Positions 3,975 to 38,143 are shown, numbered from the stretch's first letter. The stretch: DNA of 64,000 nt from Candidatus Peribacteria bacterium (GCA_943356465.1 CALREX010000004.1:112448-176447); one strand, 5' to 3'. The notes: a model not told the origin generated them from the sequence alone. A program made the numbers and translations.

Positions 3975-3984
3975 AATATAAACA

Positions 3985-7806: not shown

Positions 7807-7890
7807 AAAACCACTTTAAAAAACAATCTTATCGAGTGTTGACTTTTTAGCCATAAAATGTTTTCATTGCAAGCCTAAATACCATAAGCA

Positions 7891-21074: not shown

Positions 21075-21076
21075 GT

Positions 21077-21748
21077 TTATTTACATTCTGCCGAAGTGGC
21101 ATCAATAAATTTTCCTGGGAATCTTAGTATTTGATTTTTTACTTTTGCCAAAGCGATCTTATATTTGACCATGCCATTTAAAATGCTCACGTACTTTTTA
21201 TGAGCCGGATAAGCTATTCGAAATTCATCATAAGCGGATATTGTTGCTTCCATTACAGTCCTGGCTTGTGTGTACTCTTTGTCAATCATCTCATCACGAG
21301 CGGTTTTTTGATCCAAAAGATTTTCGGCGGTAGGATTACTTGGAAGATTTTCAGTAGGCAAAAATCCTTTCATTTGATTTAACGTATCAACATAAGCAAG
21401 ATAAATATCCATCGCTTGCATTGAAATACAGTAAGTACTTACATTTTTTTCCCCGCATTTTTCAACATAATTCGATGAGGTAACATCCTTAGGAGGATTA
21501 AAATCGGGGTTTTTATAAAAATCCTCACCTCCATCAGTCATATCAGTTAGCATGGCAAGTTTATCATTGAAATACTCATTCATGGATTCATGATATTTGG
21601 CTTGCACAAAGAAAAAACTGGCAGTAGGAACTTTGAAGTCATAATAACCTTTTTTCCCTGTTTCAGCATAAATTGCATAACCTCCACTTATTAAAAATGT
21701 AGTTATTAGTGCTGAAACAAAACTGATTATTATATTTCTAAATTTCAT
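21077..21748 (-). CDS. secreted/anchored hypothetical protein (223 aa)
   Basis: N-terminal hydrophobic leader and a helical body. Internal Cys pair (EKCGEKNVSTYC). Ends in SAECK. 3-nt gap to the upstream gene. Confidence 0.7.
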   Translation of the reverse strand: MKFRNIIISFVSALITTFLISGGYAIYAETGKKGYYDFKVPTASFFFVQAKYHESMNEYFNDKLAMLTDMTDGGEDFYKNPDFNPPKDVTSSNYVEKCGEKNVSTYCISMQAMDIYLAYVDTLNQMKGFLPTENLPSNPTAENLLDQKTARDEMIDKEYTQARTVMEATISAYDEFRIAYPAHKKYVSILNGMVKYKIALAKVKNQILRFPGKFIDATSAECK

Positions 21749-21751
21749 TTT

Positions 21752-22345
21752 TTAATTTGTAACACATTTGTTTAAGAAACCGGGCGATTTATTTTTAAAT
21801 GTAGAGAAAAATCCATACATTTGTGAAATTTCAGAATTCAAGTCTTGAAGCCTGTTGTCGATAGCTTTATATTTTTCAATAAGCATTGTGGCTTTTTTTT
21901 GTGCACTATTACTCCTTACATAATCCATAAGTTTTTGCTTCGCCAGAGAAATATATGTGTCAGCAATTTCACGACATATTACATAATTTGTATATTCTTC
22001 ACTTTGTAAGTTTCCAAGAACATTTGAATTCAAGGTAACCATTCCAAAAACTAAATTAATTCTTCTTTTATATGCCATGTATTTTGCTATAGATGTGTTT
22101 AAAAGTGTTGTGTCAGAGCTTTTATTTTGAAAATTTGTTTCAAGAAATTTCAAAAATTCCAAAGTATCTATATCGTAAAGAGGAGTAAGCCTTTGCCTGC
22201 ATTCACTTAACGGAGCTGATTTCAGGGAAGTTTCAAGATTTTTTTTCATACCTGTAAGTTCAGGAGGAAAATCTTCAGCAAAAGAAATAGCGGATATTAA
22301 AATGCTTATAGTTAAAGCCAAAATGAGGAGTGAGGATTTTTTCAT
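21752..22345 (-). CDS. secreted hypothetical protein (197 aa)
   Basis: Clear signal peptide (LLILALTISILISAISFA). Helical body. Ends in NKCVTN. 4-nt gap after the giant gene stop. Confidence 0.7.
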   Translation of the reverse strand: MKKSSLLILALTISILISAISFAEDFPPELTGMKKNLETSLKSAPLSECRQRLTPLYDIDTLEFLKFLETNFQNKSSDTTLLNTSIAKYMAYKRRINLVFGMVTLNSNVLGNLQSEEYTNYVICREIADTYISLAKQKLMDYVRSNSAQKKATMLIEKYKAIDNRLQDLNSEISQMYGFFSTFKNKSPGFLNKCVTN

Positions 22346-22349
22346 AATT

Positions 22350-25300
22350 TTATTTTACAACATCAATTGAATTACTCTTAGAGAAAATATAATTATCATC
22401 TTTATTAGAGATAATTGTGAAAAATCTATCTGTCGGTAAAATCATACTGCTGTTTGAAATAGTAGATTTACAAGGGCAGGTATTGCATTCTCCAGGCACT
22501 ACATATATACCCGGAACAGATTCTTTCTTGGTAAATTCAGTCGTAACTTGTGATTTATCATCGCTTGGATCAAATATGTCAGTGCCATTTTTTAGCTCAG
22601 TTGCATCATCCGTGCCGCCGCCATCAGTATCTTTTGCTATCGGTTTATTTTCAAAACAGTTATAAACATCAAGAACTCTGCCGGCAAGAATAAACAAATC
22701 TCCACGTGTCATAGCCTTTTCAGGTGTCTTTGCCTCATCGGTGGTAACAATGAAATTGTTTTTTATAGCTTTATTCTGAGACAGGTATTTAGTAAGATTC
22801 TGTGCTGCTTGCATGAAATTTACATACCAAGGAATACCAATTCGAACTTTATCAACATTGATTACATTTTCCATTTGAAGAGCACCAAGAATAATTTTCA
22901 CAGCTTCAGCCAAATTTATTGTATTTTCAGGTTTGAAAGGATGTAAATTCTTCGCGTCACTTTCTCCACGATATCCATCTATAAGAGCCCTCAACGCCGC
23001 TTCTTTAATATATGGATAGAACCAATCCAGAGGCTGTTTGTATTGAATATCTGAGAATCCACCATGTGCTTCGTCAGCAGAATAAGGCTTGTATGCTTCA
23101 GGTCTTGGTTCTATACAAAGCATTTTCAAAAGAATTTTTACAAACTGACTTCTGTTCACCAAATCATCAGGTTTAAGATAAACACCATTCTCGGATTTTA
23201 TACCGTCTATAATATCTTTTTCATAAAGATCATTCGCTATTTTCTTTAGATCCGAAGATAAATTACCAAAATCCGCGAATGGAGAAACAAATGCATTAGC
23301 AGATTTTTCAAGTGTATTAGCATTTGAAGTCTTGGCAAAGGGAACATCTTTTGCTCCAACAATTTTTGCAGTAATAGTATTGTTTACATGTACTTCAGCC
23401 ACAACTTTTTCATCAACAATAAGATTCATAACAAGTGGATCTTTTGTGTAATCATTGGTTTTTTTCATTGCCTTAAGCCTATTATCCAGCACTGTGATAT
23501 TTCCGGAAGGTTCGATTGCGGCAAAAAGAATGTTATTTTTGCTGTCAACGATAGTTGCTCCACCTGGATTAAATTTATTATCAACAGGCAAAATTTTCAC
23601 ATCAATTCCATCGTTAGGATTCAAATCAATAACATTTGTTCCATATAAATTTGAAGAATTTATGTCAGTATTGGCATCTCCGACAATATAAACTGTGGCT
23701 TCAGTGTATCCATTTTTATCAATGATTGTTAGGCTTGTAGAAGCCATATTTGATTTATTTGCAGTGTTTATCTTTACTTCGTATCCGTCAGCAAGCTCAC
23801 CTATACTTCCGGTTTTTGGATTTATTTTTGCAATAATTTTCCCATTTTCATCTTCAATCAAAATCATGTCATCCAAAGAAAAATCTTTAATATTATAGGA
23901 TCCATCATCATCAGTTTTATATTTTCCATCTTTATCAGCAGAAGATGTTTTGATTTTTTCAAGTTTAGGAACAAGAGTAAGATTGCCATCCACAGATCTA
24001 TATACATAACGTTCTCTCATAAGACTGAAAGGAAACTTTGCCAAAGATGGATCAACTTTTCCCGAGGCTATAGGTGTTCTTTCCAGAGGTTTATCCAAAG
24101 AGATTTTTGGAGCAAAAACATTTATTGTTATCTTTTCAGATGACGAATTTCCTGAAGCATCAACAACATTTAAAATAGCATAATGCATACCGATATCCCC
24201 TTCATTTACAAAAGGTCCGATATTGAATTTTGGGTTACTCTTGTCATTTGTTGGATTGCCGTCACCGTCTTCATCGATAGATAGATTTACATCACTCCAT
24301 ATTAATTTCGGAAACTGAGTGACATTTTTCTTGTCACTTTCAAAAGGCAGCATCTCGATCGAATATTCTGTAACTTTCCCATTTGCATCAAAAGAATTCT
24401 CTGCATCAAGAACAAAACTTTGAAATATAGGGACATTGAAAGTCGTTTGAGATATCGCAGGCAAAGGTGGTTCTTTATCGGAACATAAAGGTGCCTCATA
24501 CATCGGATAGTAAGAGATGAAGTTCACTCCATTTTTCAAAATATAATCCGAAACAGCACTATTTGAAGATGAAACATATATGTCACCTTTCTTTGATTTA
24601 GGTGTTTCTTTATAATTTAATTTTAGATAAACCTCTCCTCCCATCGATAAAACAATATCTTTGTCGCTGTCGCCATCGCTATCAATGAAAAGAGTATTCA
24701 CAAAACTGCCAAGCTCCGAAGTATAATTCAAAACACTTTCATTTTTTCCATCAGCTACTATATAAAATCCTTTTGGCGCACCGCCGGAATCTGCAGACAC
24801 AGGATCGATTTTTGAGGCATCACTTGGCTCCAAAGCTATCATCTTTTCTTTCGTTTCATCAGTGAAAAGAGAACCTTTTATCTGTTGCTTATGGTCTACA
24901 GATAAATCTATTTTTTGTAAGGTATTATCAACAAATAGATTTTTTTTGCTTTCATCCTCAGCAATAAACTTCATAAATTCATCGTAGTTGTTTATCTTCG
25001 ACAAGACATCATTATTTGATTGATTCAAATCGTTTGCATAAGCCAACATGCTGTTTCTTATGGCATACATTTTTTCCATTTCAGGATAATCTGTAAATGA
25101 ATCAATATTTAAATCTTTTATATCTGAAAGTTTCTTATTAAAAATAGGATTATCTTTTTTCAAAACAGATTCTGTCGCAGTTAGATAAAATTTCTCAGGA
25201 TAATTTTTATCCAAATCTGCAGAAGAGACATATTTATTAATTTCATCACTGAAAATTTTAAGTTCATTATTAAGTTGAACAAAAACTTCAGGAATGGCCG

Positions 25301-28300
25301 TCTGTTTTTTAACAGCATCTTTAACGTCATCAAGAGCTTTCTTTGTAGTATCTTCAACACCGGAAACACCTTTTTTTACAGCTTCTTTGGCTTTTTCCGC
25401 CGCTGCCTCAGTAAGTTTCTTAACAAGATTATTTACAAATGTCTGGAATGGCAAACCTGTAAATTTATTAATTCCATCAACTATTTTCTTTGTTTGTTCA
25501 TTCATTTTATCAGCTCCAAGTTTTGCTATGTAGTAAATAAAACTTGTATCAATTCCAAAATTCAATTTTGCTTCTACTTTTATTTGATCTACATAATCAT
25601 ATTGAATAGCAGGCATTTGAAGTGAAAATTGCTTAAGAATAGGCAAGATGGATTGTGCAGACGGTTGAGTCAAAGTCTCTATCTCTGTAGCAAGACTTGT
25701 CTCAAGAATTGGAACAAGTCCTTTTTTCAAAAGACATAGAATCTTTATAACTTTTTTAAGACTTGCAACTATTTTTAATGTTGCATCAGGTAATTTTGGA
25801 ATTTTTGGAGGACGTGGTAGGTCAGGCAAATTCGGAAATGCAAGATTTGGAAGATCAGGAATATTTGGCATAACAAATTCAGGAAAATTTTTGATCCAGT
25901 CGGGAATATCAAATTTTGTATCTCCAAAAATTTTCGAAATATCAAGAGTGTAATCATCAGGAATAACCTCAGGAAGCGTTATTGTAGGAAGATTTGGTAA
26001 ATTTATAGACTCAGGTTTAAACACAATATCAGGCCATACGATATGTACACCTGTTTTTATTTGAGAAACATCAAAAACAATATCAGGCCATTTTGGCAGA
26101 GGAATTACAGGAGGATCCGGAATATTTACAAACAAGCTAAGCAAAAGACCAAGCTTACTAAATCTATCGCTTTTATTACACTCATTACAAGATTTTTCAT
26201 AATCTATTGATAGATCAAATATAGCATGCCAGTTTTTGAATGTTTTTATGGCATCCGCAATAGCCTTAGTCCATGATGCGGCTATTTTATTTTGACGTTT
26301 GATATATCCACCCATAAATTGCATTACGCTGTCCATATAACAAATAATCTGTGTCGCATACTTTGTTTCAAGACTTCTAAGTTTTAAAATCTCAGATGGC
26401 AATTTCGCAATTTTATCCAATTTATCCATCAAAGTCTTGATGGAAGTAACGTAGCTTTTTAAATTTACAGTTACTTTATCGCAAAGAGTTTTTCTATAAT
26501 TATTTTCATCACACTTCCAATACTGAGTGACTCTGTCGATTTCCTTGCCTTCAAAATCAACCCACAAAGAAGCCTGTCTCTTCCATTTTTCAATTTCAGC
26601 CTGTGTTAGGGCAGGAACTTTTATAAGTATTTCTTTTCCTTCAATTTGAATAAAAGGAATTGAATTTACAGCTCGTAGGAAATCATTTACGCTTTTTATC
26701 TTTTTAAAATTTTTACCTGCTGCAGCAAATTTTGCACCTAATTGCCCAAAATCAGGAATTATCAAATATATATCGGGGAAATCAAGAAGTTTATTGTAAA
26801 TTTCATCAGCCTCTTTATCCAGCCAGTTGGTAATAACACTAGGGAATCCAGGGATTCTTACATTTACTTTGCTTGCAGCAGAAATAGGCAATGTATCGCT
26901 TGAATAACTGTTCCCCATGGAGATAGCATCAGTACCTGTTGAAGCGTCTCCATTCGAAGTAACGGTTGAAGTGCCGATATCTGGATCGACAAATACATTT
27001 TTAGCTTTTGCAACAGCATCATTTATATCTTGAAGAAAATTCGGACATCCACCAAGCAAACTTGGAGGTATAGAAGTTGCATAACACATTCCGGCAGCAC
27101 CGGTAGGTCCTACACAAACAGCTGTTCCAAGTCCCATAGTTAAAGTAGGGGATATATACAAACGAACAGAAGAAACAGAATTTGAAGGAAGAAAAAATGC
27201 AAAATAAGGAGGATTTGGTGTTCCAAAAGAGATCACTGGATATCCCGGAGTTGCGCCACTTGGAGCCAAAAACGCATAATTATAAGGAATTGGCAAACAT
27301 CCTCCTCCGCTACACTTGAAATTGCTAAATGTCTGAGCTGCATTATAAACACTGTCCCCCATGCTCTTAAAATCAAGCTGTTTAATGGTCTGCCAAAGAT
27401 CCGGACAACCATTATTATCCTTGTCTGCAGAATTTGATTGAACCATTCCAGTCAAAGAATTTTTTATGGAATTTGGTATACCGCTTGTACCTATTGTCTT
27501 TATCAAATCTTTTGGAGATGGAAGTCCATTCTTTTTAAATTCTTTGTCATACTCATCTCCCAGCCCTTTTCCAGAGCTTTTTATAACTTTTTTCTCATAA
27601 TTCACATACTGATCTCCTATACCTTTAGAGTACAAATAAATAATATCGCCATTTGGATTTATACTCGGACGTACACGAATATCAGGATATTTGTCTTTTT
27701 CATATCCGCCAAAATCATATCCAATATCAAAATTTATAGAAGGGATTAAATCTACTGTGGATGTGTATTTTATTGTCCTCTTGCCATTTGCAGGGACAGA
27801 AATATTTTTTATTAACTTGGATCTCAGGCTCATTCCAGAATCTATCCACTCAAGTTTGTCAGTACAATTGGTGTCTGCACATTTAAGGCTGTCCTGTTGA
27901 AGAGTCATTGTCAAAGGAGTCAAATCTGAAACCATTACTCCATTTAGATTTGATCCTGATTTATTTTCAAGAGTGATTGTAAATTCTATCTTATCTCCTG
28001 AAGCAACAGTATTTCCATTCACATCCAAAGCTGTTTTTGTGGAAGAAGTAAACTCCGGAATCTTCGAGATAGGCTTGAATTTATATTGTTTATTGTCTTT
28101 TTTAAATTCATCGTTATCAAGAGCGCCAAATTCTACGAAATCTTGAGTTACTCCGTCAGGATTTGGAGATAGATTTTCCATGCCAGGCAAATAGACAAAA
28201 AGGTTATTCTTCATGTCGGTATCTGCGTTTATTCCATATCCGAAATTGAAAGAATTTCCATAATTTGTTTCTAGCCCTTTACATGATTTTCCGTCATTTT

Positions 28301-31300
28301 TGTTATAAAATATTCGAACATTTGCTGAAGCATCAGAAGTTACAAGATCATCACATCCATCTTTATTCATGTCATATCCTTTCATTTCATAAATTTTTCC
28401 GTCAATATTCAAATTTAAGGGCTTTCTCTCAAAGGTAGTGGCATTATTCATGTAAAGAGATACACATTTCTCATTTGCTTTACATGGTTCTTTCGGCCCG
28501 ACAACAAGATCATCATAACCGTCATTATTGGAATCTATCTTTGCTATACTATAAATTCCACTAGCTACATTTAAAATATATCCCTTGTCTCTGAATTTTT
28601 TATGTCCGCCTTCGTATTCCAAAAGTCTTACATGCCCATCTTCATAAGCCAATAAAATGTCATCTTTTCCGTCACCATTAAAATCAAAATTTATCATTTT
28701 ATAAACCTCATCTTCACCTTGAAAAAGAGGGGATCCTATATCTTTTGTATAGCCGCTAAACTTGCTGACCAAGTCTGTAAGCCAATTTTTGCCGACTCTA
28801 ACATTTGGATCTCCATAAATAATTCCATATTCAGATCCATAAGGAATACTTGATTCTCCGACAGAATTTCCTGCAGAAAAATAAAGCATATTTTTATTCT
28901 TATACTTGAATCCTGCTCCTGTATTTTCAGAGAAAGGAGTTGTCAAAGTATCTTTATCCAAGAGATAAAGTCCTTTAGGTTCACTTGTGGAAGCACGAGA
29001 AAAGAAAGAGGCAAAATCATATTTTGTATCTCCCGAAAGCAAAGTAAATTTCACTTCTTTTTCGCCTTTGAATTCTATGAGTGCAAAATCCTGTGAATCT
29101 TTTGTTATGACCAAGGAAAATTCATGTGCTTCGAATGTGTCATCTTTAAGAGGAAGTCTTAGTTCAAAAGATTTATCATTTATTGAAATTTTTCCATCAT
29201 TTGAAATTTTTACTTTCGTATCAATTCCTTGAGTCAAATAAAATCCATCGGATTTTTTTTCAAGTTTATAATCGCTGTCATCACTCAACATCGTCGCTTC
29301 TATATTTATATCTTTAGCCATTGCTATGCTTGCCTCAGCCAAAGTTTCTTTCGTATTAATATTTTCAAAAGAAATTTTCTGAGCATTTTGAGAGCTGTCA
29401 CTAACAGGCAAAACATTTGCACTAATATCATCAGACAAAATATCCACTTTTCCATATCCATCTATTGCTACAAGTTTTTTTGTATTGCTTGGTGTTTGAG
29501 TTTCTGCAGAAACTGCCTGTACATAGCCGTTTTGCAAGAATCCTTGTGCGATATTTTTTTCGGTTTCAGGATTTCCAAAGTCTCCTCCAAGTAATGAAAT
29601 ATACAAAGACTTTGCATTGAAGCCTGCCACTTTTTCGTAATTATATTTGTACGAAGTATCTTTTTGTTCTTCTTCTTTTTGCGCCTGTTCTTGCGTTTTT
29701 GGAATGTTCAGAATTATAGAACCAGAAGCAAATCCAGGAACATTCACATAAATTTCAGCATTACCAAAAGCCGTACTATAAGGCTGAAATACAGCCTCAG
29801 GAGCGCTTCCATTTGTCATTTTCACTGGAGCTGAAGGTACAAATTGTCCAAATGTAGAATTCAAAACTTTAAATTCTATAGGCCCACTGTAGCCGGAAAC
29901 AATTTCTCCATTTTTTGTTAATTGAGCCTTTATCGAATATTTATTTGCAGCAAGAGTAAGGCTTAGATTATCAACGATATTTATTATTTTTGCAGTTTCA
30001 GTGCCATTAACTTTTTCAAAATTATCATCAATCAAATAAGCGGAGATAGTAGACGATCCAACTGAATTTTTTGAATAAATATCAAAACTCACAGAACCTT
30101 CAAAAGAAGAAACCTGAATCCCATCTATATTTTGAAATTCATCAACTTTTGGATCTATGGAAATTTTATCATCTGTTTTTATTGTTGCCTTCGCATATGT
30201 ATTTACTTTTTTACCATTTTTATCTTTAAAGATGACATTCATCTTTGTCTTGGACTGGCCATTTGAGACAAGTACTGTGGAATCAGGAACCATTTCTATT
30301 GAAACAGCATCAAGAAATTCTGTGGCATTTCCACCCAAAGCATCAGCAAGTCCTTTATCATCGGGAATACTTTGTTCACCTGCTTTCTTTTCTTCTTTTC
30401 CTCCAATATCCAGAGGGTTTGGATTTATACAAACAGGTTTGAAATTTGGTTTTGAATCAAAGTATTTCAAAAATTTATCAACATCTTTCAAGAAATCTTT
30501 AAGATCAACAAACTCAAAATCACTTTCGCCATCTTTAGATGTAGTTGCATTTGGTGGCTGCGAATTACTTCCTCCTGCACCTGTTTGATCTGTCCCTCCA
30601 GGAAGAGAAGTTTTGCCTATTTCCACTCCGCCGTCGGCTTTTTTTACAAGACCGCCTTTTGAATTGAAATTTGTTTTGAAAGAATCTTTTGCTCCATTTA
30701 AGACCAAATAAGATGCTTCATATCCATTTACACTATCTCCAACATAACCATCTTTGTCAGGATTTAAATATCTAGAAAGAATATAATTATGTTTTTCATC
30801 CATTCCCAGTGCTCTCCACGAAAGTGCATCATAAATTTTTTGAGCCGATGCAGCATTTAAAATGAATCCATCGGGACTATCATCCTTCTCACCGTCAATA
30901 ATAATAGGCGATAAATATTTTGCCATTACTGCGTCATGTATCGCAATCAAGTCCTTATTTCCATCTGCCAAAATCTCAGATCCTGGTATTTTTGCTATTT
31001 GCCATGCTACGGCATCAAGTTTTACTTTTATCTGTGCAACATTTTCTGTATCAAAAACATTTGGATAATAAATTTTTTGAGTATTTCCATTTAATGCTTT
31101 ATCTGCGGGTTGGCTTACAAAAGCCACATAACGAGGATTATCAATAGGTAGATCTAAAGTGCTTTGAGCATTAACTTGGCTTAGGATGGTATAATTCGTA
31201 GGTTCATTGTGTATTACTGCGCTAGACAATTTTTTATCCGTACCATCTTTGTTTTTGTAAGCTGAAACAGAAACATTCAAAGTAATATCGGCTTTATAAT

Positions 31301-34097
31301 TATTTCCTGGAGCATCTTTTGGAATGATATAGTTTGTATTTTTTGAAAGCATTTTTCTGGAAATTTCAGAAAGCTTATTGCTTGCAATTCCATACTTACT
31401 GTCAGCTTCATCAAAATCATAAACTATAGTCTCTTTTACTCCGTCCTGTCCGGCTTTACCGTCTTTATCCAGCAAATCTTTCATTTCAAAATCAGCTACC
31501 CCATCATTGTCATTATCAATTCCATCAAAAAGTCCATATCTGTCAGAAAAATCTTTGAGAGTAACTATTTGATTATTAAAATTATTTACAATGATTTGTC
31601 CTGCATCAAGTTTGTCCAGATCAAGCCATGTTTCCTTCTTTCCTGGAGCTTTTGTCGGATCTTTATTGGCGATAGCCGCAGTGAAATTTTTAAAATTATT
31701 TAGCAAATGAGAATAAAATGATCCATCAGTGGTTTCCAAAGAAGGATAAGGTGTAAAACAAGAATTCAAATACGTTTCATCCAGATTTTTAAGATCAAAA
31801 TTTTCAGGGAATTGGAACATTTTCATATGATTTGAATATGTTCCAGTAAATTTTTCAGGGAAAATAAGTTGTGTATTTGGCTTAAAATGAGGCTGATTAT
31901 CCTCATAAGGCAAATCTATACTCTTAAGTCCCTTACTTCCTGCAGGATTAAGAAGAGGCATTAAAGTTTCAGGATAAAAACATCTGTCACTATTTTTTTG
32001 AGTATTCGTCATCGTACATCCGGCAGCAAGATCATTGTTTGAAAGGGGATCATACATCGTAAAAATAGCTCCCATTGTTGGATTATCAAAAACACTTGCT
32101 GGAATATCGCCTTCAAATCCAAGAATTGAAAGAAGAACATAAAGACGCGGATTTCCTAATGGAGCATAAAAATTTGTAGAATAAGTATCAGGCTCAGTAT
32201 CAGTTTTTCCTTTGGCAACAGATACGGAAAATGTAAAATTTTTATTTTGTTTTTGTCCTTCATGATAAAATTCAACACTTATATTCCCGGCTGCAGTTTT
32301 TATATCTGCACCGTGGATGTCATCGTTTGATGGCATAAGTAACTGATATCCAAGCTTCTCTATCTTACTGAAATATTTTTGATTACCCTCGTTAATGACG
32401 GATTTTACAGCATTGTAAGATTCTTCAGCGGCCTGATCCAGAGTATAAGAAGAACTGATTTCCTTGTCGTTGATTTTAGTTATTATGTCTCCTTCTTGAA
32501 GAGGACCAAAAAAATAATTTTTATAATCTATGCTTGCACGATTCGGATTTGGATAAAATGCAGGAATTCCATAATCCGGATTTGAAGCTATCACAGCACC
32601 GCTTGAAGCATTTCCATTTGTAAGTTTTTTTGCTTCATTTTCATTCAAAATCTGCGTGTTAATACCAAAGGTATGAACAGGTATTGCAGTCCTTGGATCA
32701 TCCGAACTCAGTGAACGGGTCAAAATAGAATATTCTTTGCTTCCTGGAACATATGATCCCAAATACACTCCACACTGTTTTGCATTCTGCAATAAATCAT
32801 AATTTATTCCATTCAAATAATGGCTTCCGTTAGCACCTGCGATATATTTTTCGAGATTATACCCATAGTCTATATTAGTACCACTAAAAGTAAGAGCTTG
32901 ACCTGGTTTTCCGCCAAAACTTCCTGAAAGTTTTATCTTAGTGACAAGAGGAAGGGGAGCCTGAATTTTCTCCACAATCTCATTTATTTTTTTCTCAATA
33001 GTGTCATTAAGGAATCTTAGATATGTTTTTGCATACTCATCTTTTGCCGCAACAAGTACAGCCGCAACATCTGCATCTTTTGAGCCATATCGGCCTGTAC
33101 CATCAATGAAATCATGAGCTTGTCCTATGTAGGAAGTAATCACTTTATAATACGGCAAAAGGAATTGATCGATAATCTGCTTCGAAGTAACGTCAGGCAA
33201 ATCCTTCAGAGAATCATCTGATTCTTTGACTCCAGCATCACCACTCGCATCCTTGGAAAGATCCTTTGCTAAGTACTTGTTGTATCTCATGTATGCCAAA
33301 TCTTCCCAGTACAACAAATATTTTAAATAAGATTTATAAACATCAGGATTTATAGACTCCTCTTCATGAGTAAAATCTCCATAAAATATTTTTTTATCAA
33401 AATTTGCATATTCAGGAATACCGGCATAGTACAAATGATTTTTATCAAAGAAATTTGCAAGTTCTTCCTGTCCTGCAATTCCACTAATGTCAGCTTTGAC
33501 TACTCCACCCCAGATTTCAGGCTTGGGGAAGGTCACATTCTGGTCATATTCAAAATTCAAAGTCTTCGTGTCGTATTTATAAGTTTTGTTTTCAAAGTCC
33601 GTATAGGGATACATACTTACAAATTTTTCTCCATTTTTATTAACAACAGGAAGGGGAACATTTCCTACAAGTACTACTCCTGCAAGCCTGTTTTTCTTTT
33701 TCCCGTTTCCCTTGAAATATAAATTTTCAAGTGCATTAGCCAAATCAGCAGTAGTTTGTTTATTTTTGTCGAATAACAAAATCTGAACATCGGTATATTC
33801 GTTGCTGCTTTGAAGGTCTTCTGTATAACGAACAATCCTTTCTCCCAAAGTATTCTCCTTTAGATTATCTGGATATTTATTTTTAAGTCCTGCGTAGGAA
33901 GTTAAGTCCTTATCAAGATCAGAATCAACAACTACAGTAATCAAATCATAAGTATCCTCGAAGCCGCCTGGCTTATCAGCCTTATCTATATTGGTAAGCG
34001 CATAAGCTGTGGGGGCGGACAATATTTCCGTAGACAAAAGCGCGAGTACAGTAAGCCCGCAAAAAAACTTCTGAAAATATATACGAATGAGGTTCAT
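22350..34097 (-). CDS. giant (3915 aa) secreted multi-domain surface protein with C-terminal SLH-like cell-wall anchor
   Basis: Single 11.7-kb ORF with a signal peptide (LTVLALLSTEILSAPTAYA). Motifs read along it: Asp-rich DNDNDG calcium-binding-like loop, Ig-like (Big/PKD-like) segments, FG-GAP/VCBS repeats, a DUF11-like repeat, a Cys/Gly/Pro hydrophobic module, a Pro-rich LPN/LPD periodic module, a long helical region, and three SLH-like motifs near the C-terminus. Confidence 0.9.
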   Translation of the reverse strand: MNLIRIYFQKFFCGLTVLALLSTEILSAPTAYALTNIDKADKPGGFEDTYDLITVVVDSDLDKDLTSYAGLKNKYPDNLKENTLGERIVRYTEDLQSSNEYTDVQILLFDKNKQTTADLANALENLYFKGNGKKKNRLAGVVLVGNVPLPVVNKNGEKFVSMYPYTDFENKTYKYDTKTLNFEYDQNVTFPKPEIWGGVVKADISGIAGQEELANFFDKNHLYYAGIPEYANFDKKIFYGDFTHEEESINPDVYKSYLKYLLYWEDLAYMRYNKYLAKDLSKDASGDAGVKESDDSLKDLPDVTSKQIIDQFLLPYYKVITSYIGQAHDFIDGTGRYGSKDADVAAVLVAAKDEYAKTYLRFLNDTIEKKINEIVEKIQAPLPLVTKIKLSGSFGGKPGQALTFSGTNIDYGYNLEKYIAGANGSHYLNGINYDLLQNAKQCGVYLGSYVPGSKEYSILTRSLSSDDPRTAIPVHTFGINTQILNENEAKKLTNGNASSGAVIASNPDYGIPAFYPNPNRASIDYKNYFFGPLQEGDIITKINDKEISSSYTLDQAAEESYNAVKSVINEGNQKYFSKIEKLGYQLLMPSNDDIHGADIKTAAGNISVEFYHEGQKQNKNFTFSVSVAKGKTDTEPDTYSTNFYAPLGNPRLYVLLSILGFEGDIPASVFDNPTMGAIFTMYDPLSNNDLAAGCTMTNTQKNSDRCFYPETLMPLLNPAGSKGLKSIDLPYEDNQPHFKPNTQLIFPEKFTGTYSNHMKMFQFPENFDLKNLDETYLNSCFTPYPSLETTDGSFYSHLLNNFKNFTAAIANKDPTKAPGKKETWLDLDKLDAGQIIVNNFNNQIVTLKDFSDRYGLFDGIDNDNDGVADFEMKDLLDKDGKAGQDGVKETIVYDFDEADSKYGIASNKLSEISRKMLSKNTNYIIPKDAPGNNYKADITLNVSVSAYKNKDGTDKKLSSAVIHNEPTNYTILSQVNAQSTLDLPIDNPRYVAFVSQPADKALNGNTQKIYYPNVFDTENVAQIKVKLDAVAWQIAKIPGSEILADGNKDLIAIHDAVMAKYLSPIIIDGEKDDSPDGFILNAASAQKIYDALSWRALGMDEKHNYILSRYLNPDKDGYVGDSVNGYEASYLVLNGAKDSFKTNFNSKGGLVKKADGGVEIGKTSLPGGTDQTGAGGSNSQPPNATTSKDGESDFEFVDLKDFLKDVDKFLKYFDSKPNFKPVCINPNPLDIGGKEEKKAGEQSIPDDKGLADALGGNATEFLDAVSIEMVPDSTVLVSNGQSKTKMNVIFKDKNGKKVNTYAKATIKTDDKISIDPKVDEFQNIDGIQVSSFEGSVSFDIYSKNSVGSSTISAYLIDDNFEKVNGTETAKIINIVDNLSLTLAANKYSIKAQLTKNGEIVSGYSGPIEFKVLNSTFGQFVPSAPVKMTNGSAPEAVFQPYSTAFGNAEIYVNVPGFASGSIILNIPKTQEQAQKEEEQKDTSYKYNYEKVAGFNAKSLYISLLGGDFGNPETEKNIAQGFLQNGYVQAVSAETQTPSNTKKLVAIDGYGKVDILSDDISANVLPVSDSSQNAQKISFENINTKETLAEASIAMAKDINIEATMLSDDSDYKLEKKSDGFYLTQGIDTKVKISNDGKISINDKSFELRLPLKDDTFEAHEFSLVITKDSQDFALIEFKGEKEVKFTLLSGDTKYDFASFFSRASTSEPKGLYLLDKDTLTTPFSENTGAGFKYKNKNMLYFSAGNSVGESSIPYGSEYGIIYGDPNVRVGKNWLTDLVSKFSGYTKDIGSPLFQGEDEVYKMINFDFNGDGKDDILLAYEDGHVRLLEYEGGHKKFRDKGYILNVASGIYSIAKIDSNNDGYDDLVVGPKEPCKANEKCVSLYMNNATTFERKPLNLNIDGKIYEMKGYDMNKDGCDDLVTSDASANVRIFYNKNDGKSCKGLETNYGNSFNFGYGINADTDMKNNLFVYLPGMENLSPNPDGVTQDFVEFGALDNDEFKKDNKQYKFKPISKIPEFTSSTKTALDVNGNTVASGDKIEFTITLENKSGSNLNGVMVSDLTPLTMTLQQDSLKCADTNCTDKLEWIDSGMSLRSKLIKNISVPANGKRTIKYTSTVDLIPSINFDIGYDFGGYEKDKYPDIRVRPSINPNGDIIYLYSKGIGDQYVNYEKKVIKSSGKGLGDEYDKEFKKNGLPSPKDLIKTIGTSGIPNSIKNSLTGMVQSNSADKDNNGCPDLWQTIKQLDFKSMGDSVYNAAQTFSNFKCSGGGCLPIPYNYAFLAPSGATPGYPVISFGTPNPPYFAFFLPSNSVSSVRLYISPTLTMGLGTAVCVGPTGAAGMCYATSIPPSLLGGCPNFLQDINDAVAKAKNVFVDPDIGTSTVTSNGDASTGTDAISMGNSYSSDTLPISAASKVNVRIPGFPSVITNWLDKEADEIYNKLLDFPDIYLIIPDFGQLGAKFAAAGKNFKKIKSVNDFLRAVNSIPFIQIEGKEILIKVPALTQAEIEKWKRQASLWVDFEGKEIDRVTQYWKCDENNYRKTLCDKVTVNLKSYVTSIKTLMDKLDKIAKLPSEILKLRSLETKYATQIICYMDSVMQFMGGYIKRQNKIAASWTKAIADAIKTFKNWHAIFDLSIDYEKSCNECNKSDRFSKLGLLLSLFVNIPDPPVIPLPKWPDIVFDVSQIKTGVHIVWPDIVFKPESINLPNLPTITLPEVIPDDYTLDISKIFGDTKFDIPDWIKNFPEFVMPNIPDLPNLAFPNLPDLPRPPKIPKLPDATLKIVASLKKVIKILCLLKKGLVPILETSLATEIETLTQPSAQSILPILKQFSLQMPAIQYDYVDQIKVEAKLNFGIDTSFIYYIAKLGADKMNEQTKKIVDGINKFTGLPFQTFVNNLVKKLTEAAAEKAKEAVKKGVSGVEDTTKKALDDVKDAVKKQTAIPEVFVQLNNELKIFSDEINKYVSSADLDKNYPEKFYLTATESVLKKDNPIFNKKLSDIKDLNIDSFTDYPEMEKMYAIRNSMLAYANDLNQSNNDVLSKINNYDEFMKFIAEDESKKNLFVDNTLQKIDLSVDHKQQIKGSLFTDETKEKMIALEPSDASKIDPVSADSGGAPKGFYIVADGKNESVLNYTSELGSFVNTLFIDSDGDSDKDIVLSMGGEVYLKLNYKETPKSKKGDIYVSSSNSAVSDYILKNGVNFISYYPMYEAPLCSDKEPPLPAISQTTFNVPIFQSFVLDAENSFDANGKVTEYSIEMLPFESDKKNVTQFPKLIWSDVNLSIDEDGDGNPTNDKSNPKFNIGPFVNEGDIGMHYAILNVVDASGNSSSEKITINVFAPKISLDKPLERTPIASGKVDPSLAKFPFSLMRERYVYRSVDGNLTLVPKLEKIKTSSADKDGKYKTDDDGSYNIKDFSLDDMILIEDENGKIIAKINPKTGSIGELADGYEVKINTANKSNMASTSLTIIDKNGYTEATVYIVGDANTDINSSNLYGTNVIDLNPNDGIDVKILPVDNKFNPGGATIVDSKNNILFAAIEPSGNITVLDNRLKAMKKTNDYTKDPLVMNLIVDEKVVAEVHVNNTITAKIVGAKDVPFAKTSNANTLEKSANAFVSPFADFGNLSSDLKKIANDLYEKDIIDGIKSENGVYLKPDDLVNRSQFVKILLKMLCIEPRPEAYKPYSADEAHGGFSDIQYKQPLDWFYPYIKEAALRALIDGYRGESDAKNLHPFKPENTINLAEAVKIILGALQMENVINVDKVRIGIPWYVNFMQAAQNLTKYLSQNKAIKNNFIVTTDEAKTPEKAMTRGDLFILAGRVLDVYNCFENKPIAKDTDGGGTDDATELKNGTDIFDPSDDKSQVTTEFTKKESVPGIYVVPGECNTCPCKSTISNSSMILPTDRFFTIISNKDDNYIFSKSNSIDVVK
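22660..23240 (-). other. three SLH-like (S-layer homology) motifs near the C-terminus of the giant protein
   Basis: FADFG..LYEKDIIDGIKSENGVYLKPDDLVNRSQFVKILL; FSDIQYKQPLDWFYPYIKEAALRALIDGYRG..FKPENTINLAEAVKIIL; and a weaker third motif ending in MTRGDLFILAGRVL. Confidence 0.6.
28320..28700 (-). other. FG-GAP/VCBS-type repeats (integrin-alpha-like beta-propeller blades) in the giant protein
   Basis: FDFNGDGKDDILLAYEDGHVRLL, IDSNNDGYDDLVVGP, and YDMNKDGCDDLVTSDASANVRIFYN, spaced about 50-60 aa apart. Confidence 0.65.
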
Positions 34098-34272: not shown

Positions 34273-34788
34273 TTACTGAGTCAATATAGCATAACACCAC
34301 TCTGGAGCAGTTTCATTAGTAATCGCAGTTATAGTTCCAGCAATAGCGGCTGTACAAGTACTATTTGCTTTCTCCTTCTGCTCAACTTTAGCATAAAGTC
34401 CAAACTTATAAGAAGCGCTTGGATCTTTTTTGTAATAGTACCCACCACCATTACAAGTAGCAACAGCAGCATATACGGAATCTGTTGTCTGAGGATCGGT
34501 TGGCAACTTACCCCCAAACTCAGCTGCAAATGCAGGAATCCATGTAGTATTTGGAGCAAGATACCCAGTAGCAAGTCCGCTGGCTATACATCCAGTAGTG
34601 GAAGGATAATCCTTTCCTCCCAAATTAGCATTTACCAAAACTTTTTGTATTTTTTGTAAGTCAGCAATTCTTGCTACATCCCTTCCTTTCGCAGGTGCGC
34701 CAAGAATACTTGGTAGGAAAGCGACAGCCAAAATACCGATTATCGCAATAACAATCAAAAGCTCAATGAGGGTGAAACCTTTTTTCAT
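34273..34788 (-). CDS. type IV pilin / pseudopilin with prepilin-type N-terminal cleavage-methylation motif
   Basis: MKKGFTLIELLIVIAIIGILAV has a class III signal (G-1, F+1, E+5), followed by RDVARIADLQKI. Four Cys are consistent with two disulfides. 171 aa. Confidence 0.9.
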   Translation of the reverse strand: MKKGFTLIELLIVIAIIGILAVAFLPSILGAPAKGRDVARIADLQKIQKVLVNANLGGKDYPSTTGCIASGLATGYLAPNTTWIPAFAAEFGGKLPTDPQTTDSVYAAVATCNGGGYYYKKDPSASYKFGLYAKVEQKEKANSTCTAAIAGTITAITNETAPEWCYAILTQ

Positions 34789-36138: not shown

Positions 36139-36139
36139 T

Positions 36140-37540: not shown

Positions 37541-38141
37541 TAATTTGTACCGAGAAATTTATGATTTCCTCTTTTTTACCGGAAAGATCACTGTTATTTT
37601 CAAAATTTAATCTCACTGAAGAAACATCCATAAGTCTCACTTTGTCAGCCAAAGATCCGGAAGTTTCTATGTAATGCAGAAATTTTTCAAAATTAGCCTT
37701 AGAGCTCCTTATGCTCATTCTAAGGGGCAAAATTGAGTAATTATCTTTTTTTACAACGCTTTGATATTCGATATTTGAAACTTCAAAAACACTATCTTTG
37801 GTAGAAAGCTTTTGCTCGAATGTATCAAATTTTCTTGTAAGTTCAGTATAAGCATCAGAGGAAGGAAATACTTCTATAAGATTTGCTTCTATTTCGGATT
37901 TTAGTTGATTTATAGAATTTTTTTTGGATTCGAATAAAGCTTTTTCATTTGCCCCTTGTTCCTTTAGAGCGGCAATATACGAAGTGTTTTTATCAACAAA
38001 AGTAGTTATTGTTGAATACTCCTGCCATTTTGTATAAGTAAAAAATCCGAATGCTATCAACAAAATTCCACATAAGATGGCATAAGACTTTACTTGAGCA
38101 TCTTCCCTTTTTGTAGCTAGTAAATAAGATAGATTTGGCAT
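37524..38141 (-). CDS. PilO-like bitopic membrane protein (205 aa)
   Basis: Short cytoplasmic N-terminus, one TM (SYAILCGILLIAFGFFTY), a coiled-coil, then a ~100-aa domain. Its position is immediately upstream of pilB, overlapping it by 17 nt. Assignment rests on topology and context only. Confidence 0.45.
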   Translation of the reverse strand: MPNLSYLLATKREDAQVKSYAILCGILLIAFGFFTYTKWQEYSTITTFVDKNTSYIAALKEQGANEKALFESKKNSINQLKSEIEANLIEVFPSSDAYTELTRKFDTFEQKLSTKDSVFEVSNIEYQSVVKKDNYSILPLRMSIRSSKANFEKFLHYIETSGSLADKVRLMDVSSVRLNFENNSDLSGKKEEIINFSVQINAYFR

Positions 38142-38143
38142 AA

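What the first reader, a model, noticed from the sequence alone, without database searches (positions are those of the whole stretch)
22350..34097. Mosaic architecture of the 3915-aa protein
Reading N to C I see the following. A signal peptide, then a region with LAGVVLVGNVPLPVV...SMYPYTD that loosely recalls the strand-loop layout of C25/caspase-like folds (very uncertain). A PDZ-like GDIITKIND segment. A DNDNDGVADF Asp-rich loop (nt ~31440-31540). At least two Ig-like segments (nt ~29700-30320). Three FG-GAP/VCBS blades (28320-28700). A DUF11-like repeat (27900-28040). Two unusual modules described separately. A long helical stretch. A PKD-like segment (24100-24440). Three SLH-like motifs (22660-23240). 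Finally a Cys-containing ~80-aa end (PGECNTCPCKS). The SLH anchor sits at the C-terminus with adhesion-type folds distal to it. This would project more than 3000 residues away from the wall.
Basis: partly seen in the sequence, partly recalled or inferred. Interest (0 to 1): 0.7.

Follow-up and report, generated by a model that had tools for sequence, protein, structure and literature searches.

The report
Giant wall-anchored protein in pilus operon
This 3915-residue gene is real and belongs to a large, uncharacterised family of giant wall-anchored surface proteins in ultra-small (CPR) bacteria, almost always encoded between type IV pilus genes and four unknown secreted proteins, so it probably helps these bacteria attach to other cells.

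Summary
The 3915-aa ORF (22350-34097, minus strand) is a genuine gene. It has no internal repeats. It aligns end to end at 71% identity with orthologues from two independent MAGs.

Profile searches confirm these reader calls: the signal peptide, two Ig-like domains, FG-GAP blades, a DUF11 repeat, a triple SLH wall anchor and a conserved CxxCPC tail. The PDZ call has weak, family-level support only. The C25/caspase and PKD calls are not supported.

The protein is not a one-off mosaic. At least 382 cluster representatives share its central module, most of them 3300-6100 aa long. 81 of the best 150 align along the whole length. The hosts are Peregrinibacteria, Peribacteria and Gracilibacteria.

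- Upstream lie PilM-like?/PilO-like/PilB/PilC/pilin genes; 29 of 33 informative metagenome loci have PilB/PilC there.
- Downstream lie four conserved secreted proteins of unknown family, found in about 45 of 67 genome loci.

Only about 21% of residues fall in recognised domains. The 400-aa N-terminal domain and the 650-aa-plus central module match nothing in Pfam or PDB.

Best reading: a wall-anchored surface complex working with type IV pili in host contact. This function is inferred, not shown.

The parts
22350..34097 (-). Giant ORF, 3915 aa, including the stop codon
   Evidence: Identical protein on two assemblies. 71% identity over aa 1-3915 to the L005 and L007 orthologues.
33999..34097 (-). 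Sec signal peptide, aa 1-33, with cleavage site AYA|L
   Evidence: Read from the sequence. Hydrophobic peak at aa 11. PVAYA is conserved in homologues. No prepilin motif.
32748..33965 (-). Conserved N-terminal domain, aa about 45-450, unknown family. Motifs PLPVVxKxG, PYTDF, EIW(H/G)G, FDKNH, RYNK, KQCxxYLGS.
   Evidence: Present in about 100 of 150 relatives. Invariant columns. No Pfam or PDB hit. AF2 model poor, with a beta-alpha-beta core only. Fold search not significant.
32217..32648 (-). PDZ-like segment, aa 484-627 (contains GDIITKIND)
   Evidence: Below threshold in Pfam, 17 bits. PDZ_2 at 6.6e-11 in 2 of 21 relatives. Family profile against HtrA-type PDZ 9pno/2l97, E 3e-4. Top weak fold hits are PDZ domains.
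31488..31526 (-). Asp-rich DxDxDG-type loop (DGIDNDNDGVADF), aa 858-870; putative Ca2+ site
   Evidence: Sequence. Conserved in the family. Ca binding is inferred from the motif type.
30648..31280 (-). Conserved region, aa 940-1150, unknown family (HxEPT...LPxDxPRY...DxKHxY...GYE)
   Evidence: Covered by about 90 of 150 relatives. Conservation. No Pfam or PDB hit.
29700..30311 (-). Two Ig-like (Big_1/invasin-type) domains, aa 1263-1466
   Evidence: mapped to these residues.
28698..29615 (-). Conserved beta-rich region, aa 1495-1800, unknown family (ends in ...GxGFxxxNK...GDP)
   Evidence: No Pfam hit.
28203..28700 (-). FG-GAP/VCBS propeller blades, aa 1800-1965, with three DxNxDGxDD loops
   Evidence: FG-GAP_3 49.9 bits and FG-GAP 30 bits. 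21 of 21 relatives hit. Integrin alpha-6/alpha-4, E 7e-8.
27828..28040 (-). DUF11 / TIGR01451 repeat, aa about 2020-2090
25398..27350 (-). Central conserved module, aa 2250-2900; the best-conserved part of the protein. It contains: a Cys/Pro-rich beta part (CSGGGCLPIPYNxAF...SPTLT), a RIPGFPSVITNW motif, long helices, an SCxxC motif, PKWPDIVFD, an invariant proline-rich stretch LPDLPxLxxPxLPDLPRPPKIP, and an amphipathic KILCLLKxGL helix.
   Evidence: 382 cluster representatives match. 131-144 of 150 relatives cover it. 45 invariant columns at 32-44% identity. No PDB sequence hit. AF2 pLDDT 56, reaching 70-86 for a hairpin plus three long helices at aa 2480-2620. No fold match.
24738..25397 (-). 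Mostly helical, less conserved stretch, aa 2901-3120
24063..24737 (-).
   Evidence: Conserved. No PKD in Pfam in 51 members. ColH PKD-like only at E 0.06, on aa 3228-3263.
23298..24062 (-). Conserved beta-rich region, aa 3346-3600, unknown family
   Evidence: Weak internal similarity to aa about 1537-1604.
22755..23264 (-). Triple SLH (S-layer homology) wall-binding domain, aa 3612-3781
22533..22652 (-). Short TSP3-like Asp-rich segment, aa 3816-3855
   Evidence: TSP3_bac hits 36 of 52 relatives at this position. Mapping. The segment is shortened in this protein.
22353..22532 (-). Conserved C-terminal domain with CxxCPC, aa 3856-3915
   Evidence: Covered by 80-103 of 150 relatives. No known family.
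21752..22345 (-). Accessory gene 1 (197 aa). Secreted, helical, with a conserved Cys near the C-terminus.
   Evidence: 4-nt gap after the giant gene. Syntenic in 45 loci. Alignment A8. No Pfam or NCBIfam hit.
21077..21748 (-). Accessory gene 2 (223 aa). Secreted; a weak paralogue of accessory gene 1.
   Evidence: Syntenic in 47 loci. A9. hhalign probability 75%, E 2.6e-5.
19158..21074 (-). Accessory gene 3 (638 aa). N-terminal hydrophobic segment, Gly/Asn-rich middle, Cys-rich conserved C-terminal half.
   Evidence: Syntenic in 46 loci. A10. No PDB hit.
18043..19194 (-). Accessory gene 4 (383 aa). Secreted, with conserved Cys residues.
   Evidence: Syntenic in 38 loci. A11. No PDB hit.
34273..34788 (-). 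Type IV (pseudo)pilin gene immediately upstream of the giant gene
   Evidence: N_methyl 33.2 bits. TIGR02532. A prepilin gene lies upstream of the giant gene in relatives.
34867..39346 (-). Pilus assembly genes: PilC/T2SSF (34867-36138), PilB/T2SSE (36140-37540), PilO-like (37524-38141), and a 400-aa protein of unknown family (38144-39346)
   Evidence: Same order and strand in 42 of 42 metagenome loci that hold PilB, PilC and the giant gene. Promoter-like site at 39406-39378 (a consensus match only).

Best explanation
The ORF encodes a Sec-exported giant cell-surface protein of a Peregrinibacteria-type CPR bacterium.

Shown:
- It is an orthologue of a large, colinear family of 3.3-6.1 k-aa proteins in Peregrinibacteria, Peribacteria and Gracilibacteria.
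- Its C-terminus carries a triple SLH domain, TSP3-like Asp loops and a CxxCPC tail.
- N-terminal to these lie a family-specific central module, DUF11, FG-GAP blades, two Ig-like domains, a PDZ-like segment and a family-specific N-terminal domain.
- The gene lies in a conserved locus: 400-aa protein, PilO-like, PilB, PilC, pilin(s), giant gene, then four secreted proteins.

Inferred:
- The SLH triplet binds a secondary cell-wall polymer non-covalently and fixes the C-terminal end at the wall.
- The conserved central module and the four co-encoded secreted proteins assemble into a surface complex. Conserved cysteines near each C-terminus may link them.
- The Ca-stabilised beta-rich domains and the N-terminal head contact the surface of a host or prey cell.
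- The complex is co-expressed with, and works alongside, retractile type IV pili. The pili make first contact and pull, and the giant complex holds.
For: - Real gene and conserved family.
- Secretion signal and lack of TM segments.
- SLH anchor. A second canonical SLH protein and an LCP-family wall-polymer ligase lie in the same window.
- Adhesion-type folds.
- Ca-type Asp loops.
- Five-gene cassette, tightly packed or overlapping, in the same order in 38-47 (about 45) of 67 genome loci, down to 23-30% identity.
- T4P linkage. 29 of 33 loci with at least 6 kb of upstream sequence have PilB/PilC, and 42 of 42 loci holding PilB, PilC and the giant gene share strand and order.
- Literature context: type IV pili are needed for host attachment in cultured Patescibacteria, and giant surface proteins are proposed host-attachment factors in Vampirococcus (PMC8080830; PMC10633639; PMC11880426).
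Against: - No experiment or expression data bear on this.
- About 79% of the protein, and all four partners, have no recognisable domain. The 'adhesin' reading therefore rests on a minority of the chain.
- Strong conservation is more typical of a structural or machine component than of a fast-evolving adhesin. The central module has 45 invariant columns at 32-44% identity, and the gene appears once in each of the 67 genome loci found.
- SLH motif 2 of this protein lacks the Arg of the TRAE motif (NLAE).
- csaB (polymer pyruvylation) could not be looked for outside the window.
- Some distant members (L058, L060, L064, L067) have no pilin gene upstream.
- About 22 relatives have a second SLH triplet at roughly 30% of their length, which does not fit a simple projecting fibre.
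Confidence: 0.55

Rival explanations
1. The giant protein and its four partners are an integral structural part of the type IV pilus apparatus of these monoderm, S-layer-bearing bacteria. Examples would be a wall/S-layer portal or collar through which the pilus passes (the job a secretin does in diderms), or a priming/tip complex standing in for minor pilins plus PilY1.
For: - The position between the major pilin and the end of the operon is conserved across the class.
- No minor pilin genes are present in the locus.
- There are four small partner proteins plus one large propeller-containing protein. This is numerically like four core minor pilins plus PilY1 (my own comparison).
- The central module is highly conserved, with long helices that could oligomerise.
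- Two wall-attachment points in larger relatives fit a wall-embedded structure.
Against: - Neither the giant protein nor the partners has a prepilin leader; all have Sec-type xYA| sites.
- No similarity to PilY1, secretins or PilQ in Pfam, NCBIfam or PDB.
- A few distant family members keep the five-gene cassette without an upstream pilin.
- Monoderm T4P systems studied so far need no such component (general knowledge).
Confidence: 0.2
2. It is the lattice-forming S-layer protein, or the main envelope scaffold, of these bacteria.
For: - SLH triplet.
- The Ig-like domains resemble those of Geobacillus-type S-layer proteins (4uj7/4uj8).
- One conserved copy per locus or genome.
- Gracilibacteria are predicted to have a periodic surface layer (PMC6851277).
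Against: - About 430 kDa is several times larger than typical S-layer proteins (general knowledge).
- The same window encodes a conventional 437-aa protein with strong N-terminal SLH repeats (95.6 bits). That is a better S-layer candidate.
- Operon linkage to pilus genes is not expected for an S-layer gene.
Confidence: 0.1
3. The N-terminal domain is a C25/clan CD-type cysteine protease, making this a wall-anchored surface protease.
For: - Beta-alpha-beta core in the AF2 model.
- Nearly invariant His221 (FDKNH) and Cys442 (KQC).
- RgpB appears in the fold search at rank 35, E 0.9.
Against: - No Peptidase_C25 or other clan CD hit in Pfam for 40 members, and no PDB sequence hit at E up to 10.
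- No significant fold match.
- His221 lies inside a predicted helix (H173-191 of the model, pLDDT about 70-80), not after a beta-strand.
- The His-Cys spacing of about 220 residues is unlike clan CD enzymes.
- The second family His (EIWHG) is Gly in this protein.
Confidence: 0.04
4. The ORF is an assembly chimera or a collapsed repeat.
For: None found. Giant ORFs in metagenome assemblies are a known risk.
Against: - Identical protein in MEGAHIT and Logan assemblies.
- A single full-length alignment at 71% identity to orthologues from two other MAGs.
- 81 colinear relatives.
- No protein, tandem or direct DNA repeats.
- Even GC content.
Confidence: 0.01

Closest known systems
SLH-anchored multidomain surface proteins of Firmicutes (for example Clostridium thermocellum anchoring scaffoldins with a C-terminal SLH triplet, Bacillus anthracis Sap/BSL proteins, Paenibacillus alvei SpaA)
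   Same: A Sec signal and a triple SLH module. The family profile aligns over all three repeats of SpaA (6cwc) and of Sap (3pyw/6bt4). Extracellular beta-sandwich domains sit outside the anchor.
   Different: It is about 3-10 times larger. About 79% of it is unrelated, family-specific sequence. It is embedded in a pilus operon with four dedicated partner genes. It occurs in CPR bacteria. Some relatives have two SLH triplets.
Giant non-fimbrial adhesins (SiiE, LapA/MpIBP-type RTX adhesins, Bap)
   Same: Multi-thousand-residue surface proteins with Ig-like domains and Ca-binding Asp-rich loops. The family profile touches the Bap Ca-binding region 7c7r/7c7u.
   Different: Those are built from long arrays of near-identical repeats and leave through type I secretion with RTX/C-terminal signals. 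This protein has no internal repeats, has a Sec signal and has an SLH anchor.
PilY1/PilC tip adhesins of type IVa pili
   Same: A large propeller-containing protein encoded next to pilin genes, and Ca-binding loops.
   Different: No sequence similarity was detected. The FG-GAP blades here are integrin-type, not the PilY1 propeller. The protein is wall-anchored by SLH. The partners are not pilins.
Giant membrane/surface proteins reported in Vampirococcus lugosii and other Gracilibacteria-group CPR (PMC8080830; PMC6851277)
   Same: The same broad lineage, the same size class (up to 4163 aa reported), and the same proposed role in host recognition together with type IV pili.
   Different: Those papers, as far as I read them, list large proteins by generic domains. 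They do not define this family, its central module or the conserved pilus-giant-four-gene locus. Homology to the Vampirococcus proteins was not tested.
Integrin alpha-type FG-GAP/VCBS propellers
   Same: Three blades with DxNxDGxDD Ca loops, and a family profile hit to integrin alpha-6/alpha-4 blades.
   Different: Only three canonical blades are detectable. A full seven-bladed propeller is not shown.

Membership tests
SLH domain (PF00395) triplet | Profile score at or above the Pfam gathering threshold | tested here: met
   21.2-21.3 bits against 20.8 for this protein, which is marginal. 39 of 52 orthologous C-termini hit, best 7.3e-30.
SLH domain (PF00395) triplet | Three consecutive repeats of about 55 aa forming the pseudo-trimer seen in solved structures | tested here: met
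   The family profile aligns to residues 6-155 of the SpaA SLH trimer (6cwc, E 6.4e-7) and to Sap (3pyw, 6bt4). This maps to giant aa 3612-3781.
SLH domain (PF00395) triplet | TRAE-type polymer-binding motif in the repeats | tested here: inconclusive
   The family consensus is RxEF / TIxRAEA / TRGE. This protein has NRSQF, NLAE and TRGD, so the Arg is present in repeats 1 and 3 only. Binding was not tested.
SLH domain (PF00395) triplet | Pyruvylated secondary cell-wall polymer (CsaB) in the same organism | not testable with these tools
   Only 64 kb of the genome is available. An LCP-family ligase and a second SLH protein are in the window.
FG-GAP / VCBS beta-propeller | FG-GAP profile above threshold with Ca-binding DxDxDG loops | tested here: met
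   FG-GAP_3 49.9 against 26.9, and FG-GAP 30 against 22.1. Three loops at aa 1805, 1855 and 1909. Integrin alpha E 7e-8.
FG-GAP / VCBS beta-propeller | A closed seven-bladed propeller | not tested
   Only three canonical blades are seen. No structure model was made for this region.
DUF11 / TIGR01451 repeat | Profile score above the curated cut-off | tested here: met
   DUF11 26.7 against 24.6. TIGR01451 28.2 against 24.
Bacterial Ig-like (Big_1 / invasin D3 type) | Profile or structure-sequence match at aa 1263-1466 | tested here: met
   This protein alone is sub-threshold at 14.5 bits. Orthologues hit Invasin_D3 at 6.5e-17 and Big_1 at 1.9e-13. The family profile hits 4uj7 at E 1.9e-7, mapped to aa 1263-1466.
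PDZ domain | Profile score above the Pfam threshold | tested here: inconclusive
   17 bits against 27 in this protein. 2 of 21 relatives are significant. Family profile against PDZ structures gives E 2.6e-4 to 5e-4. Fold hits are weak, probability 0.6-0.8.
Peptidase C25 / clan CD (caspase-like) | Sequence or fold similarity to gingipain or caspase catalytic domains | tested here: not met
   No Pfam hit in 40 members and no PDB hit at E up to 10. Fold search best for RgpB is E 0.9 on a model of pLDDT 42.7.
Peptidase C25 / clan CD (caspase-like) | His then Cys catalytic dyad, each directly after a beta-strand | tested here: not met
   Conserved His221 lies in a predicted helix, and Cys442 is about 220 residues away.
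PKD domain | PKD profile match at aa 3220-3332 | tested here: not met
   No PKD family in 51 members. ColH PKD-like 4u6t only at E 0.063.
Type IV pilin / minor pilin | Class III signal peptide (G|FTLxE) at the N-terminus | tested here: not met
   The giant protein and all four partners have Sec-type signals. Only the upstream 171-aa gene has N_methyl/TIGR02532.
PilY1/PilC tip adhesin | Similarity to the PilY1 C-terminal propeller | tested here: not met
   No such family in the Pfam or NCBIfam scans and no PDB hit.
RTX / type I secreted giant adhesins | Tandem near-identical repeats, RTX nonapeptides and no Sec signal | tested here: not met
   No internal repeats. No RTX family hit. A Sec signal is present.

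The most novel reading that the evidence does not exclude
The giant protein and its four dedicated secreted partners are a previously unrecognised, class-wide component of the type IV pilus system of Gracilibacteria-group CPR bacteria. It could be a wall/S-layer-embedded portal or base/tip complex that replaces secretin, minor pilins and PilY1. Alternatively, the conserved proline-rich/amphipathic central module could be a device that engages or breaches the host envelope once the pilus has retracted.
Probability: 0.2. Interest if true: 0.85.

Novelty: new variant of a known kind. Interest (0 to 1): 0.62.

Why it matters
CPR/Patescibacteria make up a large share of bacterial diversity and appear to live attached to other cells. 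How they recognise and hold their hosts is largely unknown. Outside Saccharibacteria almost nothing is genetically defined.

This analysis turns an isolated giant ORF into a defined, testable system:
- A family with hundreds of members across Peregrinibacteria, Peribacteria and Gracilibacteria, including oral GN02 and code-25 lineages.
- A fixed domain order.
- Two large domains with no relatives in Pfam or PDB.
- Four obligate partner genes.
- A near-constant position behind the pilin gene of a type IV pilus operon.

It names concrete targets for structure prediction, proteomics, cryo-ET and, where cultures exist, genetics. If the complex proves to be part of the pilus machine or of the host-contact organelle, it would explain how monoderm, S-layer-bearing ultra-small bacteria couple pili to attachment.

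Tried and rejected
- The search for homologous proteins with the full 3915-aa protein timed out.
- With aa 2001-2333 it returned nothing, not even the query itself.
- With the central-module alignment it returned only 5 short fragments. The word index seems not to return proteins longer than about 1100 aa. The family was instead found with the exhaustive representative search.
- A whole-protein scan of genome contigs found nothing.
A closer 256-aa alignment worked.
- phmmer of the whole protein against PDB found nothing.
- AF2 of the N-terminal 687 aa with 9 sequences gave pLDDT 42.7, and its fold search had no hit at E up to 0.001.
- AF2 of the central module with 15 sequences gave pLDDT 56.4, and its fold search had a best E of 2. 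Both models are too weak to assign folds.
- Profile-against-PDB searches of the N-terminal domain, the central module and accessory proteins 3 and 4 found nothing meaningful.
- hhalign found no paralogy of accessory proteins 3 and 4 with protein 2.
- Rfam and tRNA scans of the window were empty.
- Promoter/terminator scans were at background level. Only one plausible promoter-like site lies upstream of the operon.
- Literature searches found context but no description of this family.
- Rejected readings: C25 protease, PKD domain, pilin-like partners, RTX adhesin, and assembly chimera.
Full report
**The object**

The window holds one uninterrupted ORF on the minus strand, 22350..34097, 3915 aa, with an ATG start.
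- GC content is even across it, 33-36%.
- The protein has no internal repeats by self-BLAST.
- The DNA has no direct repeats and only one trivial 41-nt tandem array.
- Exactly the same protein was called on two assemblies: ENA k141_156933, 46 kb, and Logan ERR5863126_6079.
- It aligns in a single segment over aa 1-3915, at 71% identity, with the orthologues of two other MAGs. These are L005 (Ca. Peregrinibacteria C24_metabat.bin.136, 3995 aa) and L007 (SO_2016_GW1 bin 4, 3878 aa).

An assembly chimera or a collapsed repeat is therefore excluded for practical purposes.

Scanning the whole protein against Pfam gave only FG-GAP_3 above threshold. NCBIfam gave the DUF11-type repeat TIGR01451. Scanning ten overlapping 460-aa segments raised these to:
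- FG-GAP_3 49.9 bits and FG-GAP 30 bits.
- DUF11 26.7 bits (cut-off 24.6).
- One SLH stretch at 21.2 bits (cut-off 20.8).
- PDZ stayed sub-threshold (17 bits against 27), as did Invasin_D3 (14.5 bits).

I then built family alignments from orthologous loci and tested each region at family level.

*C-terminal 400 aa (52 sequences).* SLH hits 39 of 52, best 7e-30. Bacterial TSP3 repeats hit 36 of 52. The family profile aligns to the entire three-repeat SLH domain of SpaA (6cwc residues 6-155, E 6e-7) and to Sap. This maps to giant aa 3612-3781.

*aa 451-2249 (21 sequences).*
- FG-GAP_3 hits 21 of 21, Glyco_hydro2_C5 15, Invasin_D3 12, Big_1 12 and DUF11 9. PDZ_2 hits 2, best 6.6e-11.
- PDB profile hits were GH2 Ig-like domains (6.6e-10), integrin alpha (7e-8), S-layer-protein Ig domains 4uj7 (1.9e-7), FdeC (1.4e-5) and HtrA-type PDZ (about 3e-4).
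- Mapping puts the PDZ hit on aa 484-627, the Ig-like pair on aa 1263-1466 and the integrin hit on aa 1849-1965.

*aa 2901-3599 (51 sequences).* No PKD family in any member. The only PKD-related PDB hit is ColH 4u6t at E 0.06.

*N-terminal domain (40 sequences).* No Peptidase_C25 or any other meaningful Pfam family, and no PDB hit even at E 10.
- An AF2 model from nine sequences was poor (pLDDT 42.7). It had a confident beta-alpha-beta core only.
- Its fold search had no hit at E up to 0.001. PDZ domains topped the weak list, and RgpB gingipain appeared at rank 35, E 0.9.
- The nearly invariant His221 (FDKNH) sits in a predicted helix, about 220 residues before the conserved Cys442. This is unlike a clan CD dyad.

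So the signal peptide, Asp loop, Ig-like pair, FG-GAP blades, DUF11, three SLH motifs and Cys tail are confirmed. PDZ is plausible. C25 and PKD are not supported.

**Not a mosaic but a family**

I ran an exhaustive HMMER search with aa 2100-3299 against 1.84 billion cluster representatives.
- It found 382 proteins at E up to 1e-3, of which 209 were at E up to 1e-30.
- Almost all are 3300-6100 aa long, with the match at a similar relative position.
- Of the best 150, 81 align with the query from before aa 120 to beyond aa 3850, and 63 of these are strictly colinear by a simple test.
- Coverage along the query is highest for the central module (131-144 of 150). It is also high for the N-terminal domain (about 100), aa 950-1150, aa 1500-2250, and aa 3200-3915 including the CxxCPC tail.
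- Where sources name these proteins, they come from Ca. Gracilibacteria, Peregrinibacteria or Patescibacteria. They are called 'S-layer homology domain-containing' or 'FG-GAP-like repeat-containing' protein.

A pattern scan of GTDB species representatives with a 256-aa alignment found 67 loci. They are in Peregrinibacteria, Peribacteria, Gracilibacteria and unclassified Patescibacteria, plus one MAG labelled Nitrospirota and one labelled only 'uncultured bacterium'. They include genomes with in-frame TGA (code 25), such as oral GN02-872.

Only about 21% of the residues lie in recognised domains. The rest is family-specific.

The central module (aa 2250-2900, extending to about 3200) is the best-conserved part.
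- It has 45 invariant columns among sequences only 32-44% identical to the query.
- It carries paired cysteines, RIPGFPSVITNW, SCxxC, PKWPDIVFD, an invariant proline-rich run (LPDLPxLxxPxLPDLPRPPKIP) and an amphipathic KILCLLKxGL helix.
- It has no PDB relative by sequence.
- A 15-sequence AF2 model reached pLDDT 56 overall. It reached 70-86 for a beta-hairpin plus three long helices at aa 2480-2620.
- The model has no fold match; the best E was 2.

**Gene context**

On the same strand, upstream of the giant gene, lie:
- a 400-aa protein with no family,
- a weak PilO-like protein,
- PilB (T2SSE, 429 bits),
- PilC (T2SSF, 188 bits),
- a prepilin (N_methyl; also TIGR02532).

Downstream follow four ORFs of 197, 223, 638 and 383 aa. 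They are separated by 4, 3 and 2 nt, with a final 37-nt overlap. Each has a Sec-type signal ending in xYA, and none has a prepilin motif. None matches Pfam, NCBIfam or PDB. The first two are weak paralogues (hhalign 75%, E 2.6e-5). All carry conserved cysteines close to their C-termini.

In the 67 genome loci, the four downstream genes follow the giant gene in the same order in 38-47 loci. This holds at identities down to 23-30%, with conserved sizes.

A prepilin gene lies directly upstream wherever close or moderately distant relatives show that region. It is absent in a few distant ones: L058, L060, L064, L067, L027.

A metagenome scan with the N-terminal domain gave 80 more loci.
- Of 33 loci with at least 6 kb of upstream sequence, 29 have PilB/PilC.
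- All 42 loci holding PilB, PilC and the giant gene share strand and order.
- With at least 9 kb upstream, 19-20 of 24 also have the 400-aa and PilO-like genes.

One relative (L003) has the gene split by a stop codon into 525 + 4495 aa while remaining colinear.

The conserved unit is thus a roughly ten-gene locus: 400-aa protein, PilO-like, PilB, PilC, pilin(s), giant gene, and four secreted partners.

**Mechanism**

Shown:
- secretion signal,
- SLH triplet,
- adhesion-type and Ca-loop domains,
- family conservation,
- operon structure.

Inferred:
- The SLH triplet fixes the C-terminal end to a wall polymer. The window also encodes a conventional 437-aa SLH protein and an LCP-family ligase, so the SLH system is in use.
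- The central module and the four partners form a surface complex.
- The N-terminal part contacts a host cell.
- The complex works together with retractile type IV pili.

The last point fits what is known of cultured Patescibacteria and what has been proposed for giant proteins of Vampirococcus (PMC8080830; PMC10633639; PMC11880426).

Two observations pull away from a simple 'long adhesive fibre'. First, the family is conserved like a machine part rather than like an adhesin. Second, about 22 larger relatives carry a second SLH triplet at roughly 30% of their length, implying two wall attachments.

I therefore keep a substantial rival: that the giant protein and its partners are a structural part of the pilus apparatus, as a wall/S-layer portal or as a substitute for minor pilins/PilY1. 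Against this stand the Sec-type signals, the lack of any similarity to known pilus parts, and the few cassette-only relatives.

The S-layer-protein and protease readings are weaker. The artefact reading is excluded.

**Comparison and novelty**

The closest known kinds are SLH-anchored multidomain surface proteins of Firmicutes and giant Ig/Ca-loop adhesins.
- Membership of the SLH, FG-GAP, DUF11 and Big-type Ig families is met at domain level.
- Membership of the C25, PKD, pilin, PilY1 and RTX-adhesin families is not met.

The following were not described in the papers I could search:
- the family as a whole,
- its two large orphan domains,
- its four dedicated partners,
- its fixed place in a type IV pilus operon.

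That search is limited and is not proof of absence. I rate it a new variant of a known kind, with moderate-to-high interest. The gene itself is 'another giant CPR surface protein'. The conserved pilus-giant-partner locus, however, is a concrete and testable handle on how a whole CPR class contacts its hosts.

Noticed in passing
window 46549-47862 (-): A 437-aa protein with strong N-terminal SLH repeats (95.6 bits). It is a conventional candidate S-layer or wall-associated protein in the same genome.
   Followed up: partly
window 58876-61104 (-): A 742-aa protein with a LytR_cpsA_psr (LCP) domain. This is the enzyme family that ligates secondary wall polymers to peptidoglycan, so it is relevant to SLH anchoring.
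   Followed up: no
window 18-10419 (+): Four consecutive large ORFs (408, 909, 1273 and 842 aa). None has a Pfam hit, and the three largest have no NCBIfam hit either. This is another block of orphan, possibly surface, proteins.
   Followed up: partly
L003 10001-11578 and 11627 onward: In a syntenic relative, the giant gene is split by a stop codon and a 48-nt gap into 525-aa and 4495-aa ORFs that stay colinear with the window protein. This could be a pseudogene, a sequencing error or a genuine two-gene form.
   Followed up: partly
family proteins such as P0068, P0083, P0064, P0089 (about 22 members of 4800 aa or more): A second SLH triplet sits at about 30% of the protein length, in addition to the one at about 93%. 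This implies two wall-attachment points in that sub-clade.
   Followed up: partly
L059, L061-L063, L066, L069: Family members in Gracilibacteria have in-frame TGA codons (genetic code 25). They include oral GN02-872, so the family spans both genetic codes.
   Followed up: partly
window 18043-22345 (-) and orthologues: All four accessory proteins, and the giant protein, have conserved cysteines within the last 5-45 residues (KCVTN, AECK, VCQEW, GCTxxxxxxQC, CxxCPC). These are possible intermolecular disulfides.
   Followed up: no
window 17483-17737 (+): An 84-aa ORF just beyond the cassette looks by eye like an excisionase/MerR-type helix-turn-helix protein (…LTTDQVAQILQVHPFTILKFLKEGKL…). It was not scanned.
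   Followed up: no
giant aa about 1537-1604 against aa about 3417-3600 (window about 29286-29489 and 23298-23849): Weak cross-matches between family profiles suggest an ancient duplication of one beta-rich domain within the protein. The scores are not significant.
   Followed up: no
L039 and L040, about 1370-1813: In two GW2011 Peregrinibacteria, a 124-aa hydrophobic protein is inserted between the pilin gene and the giant gene.
   Followed up: no
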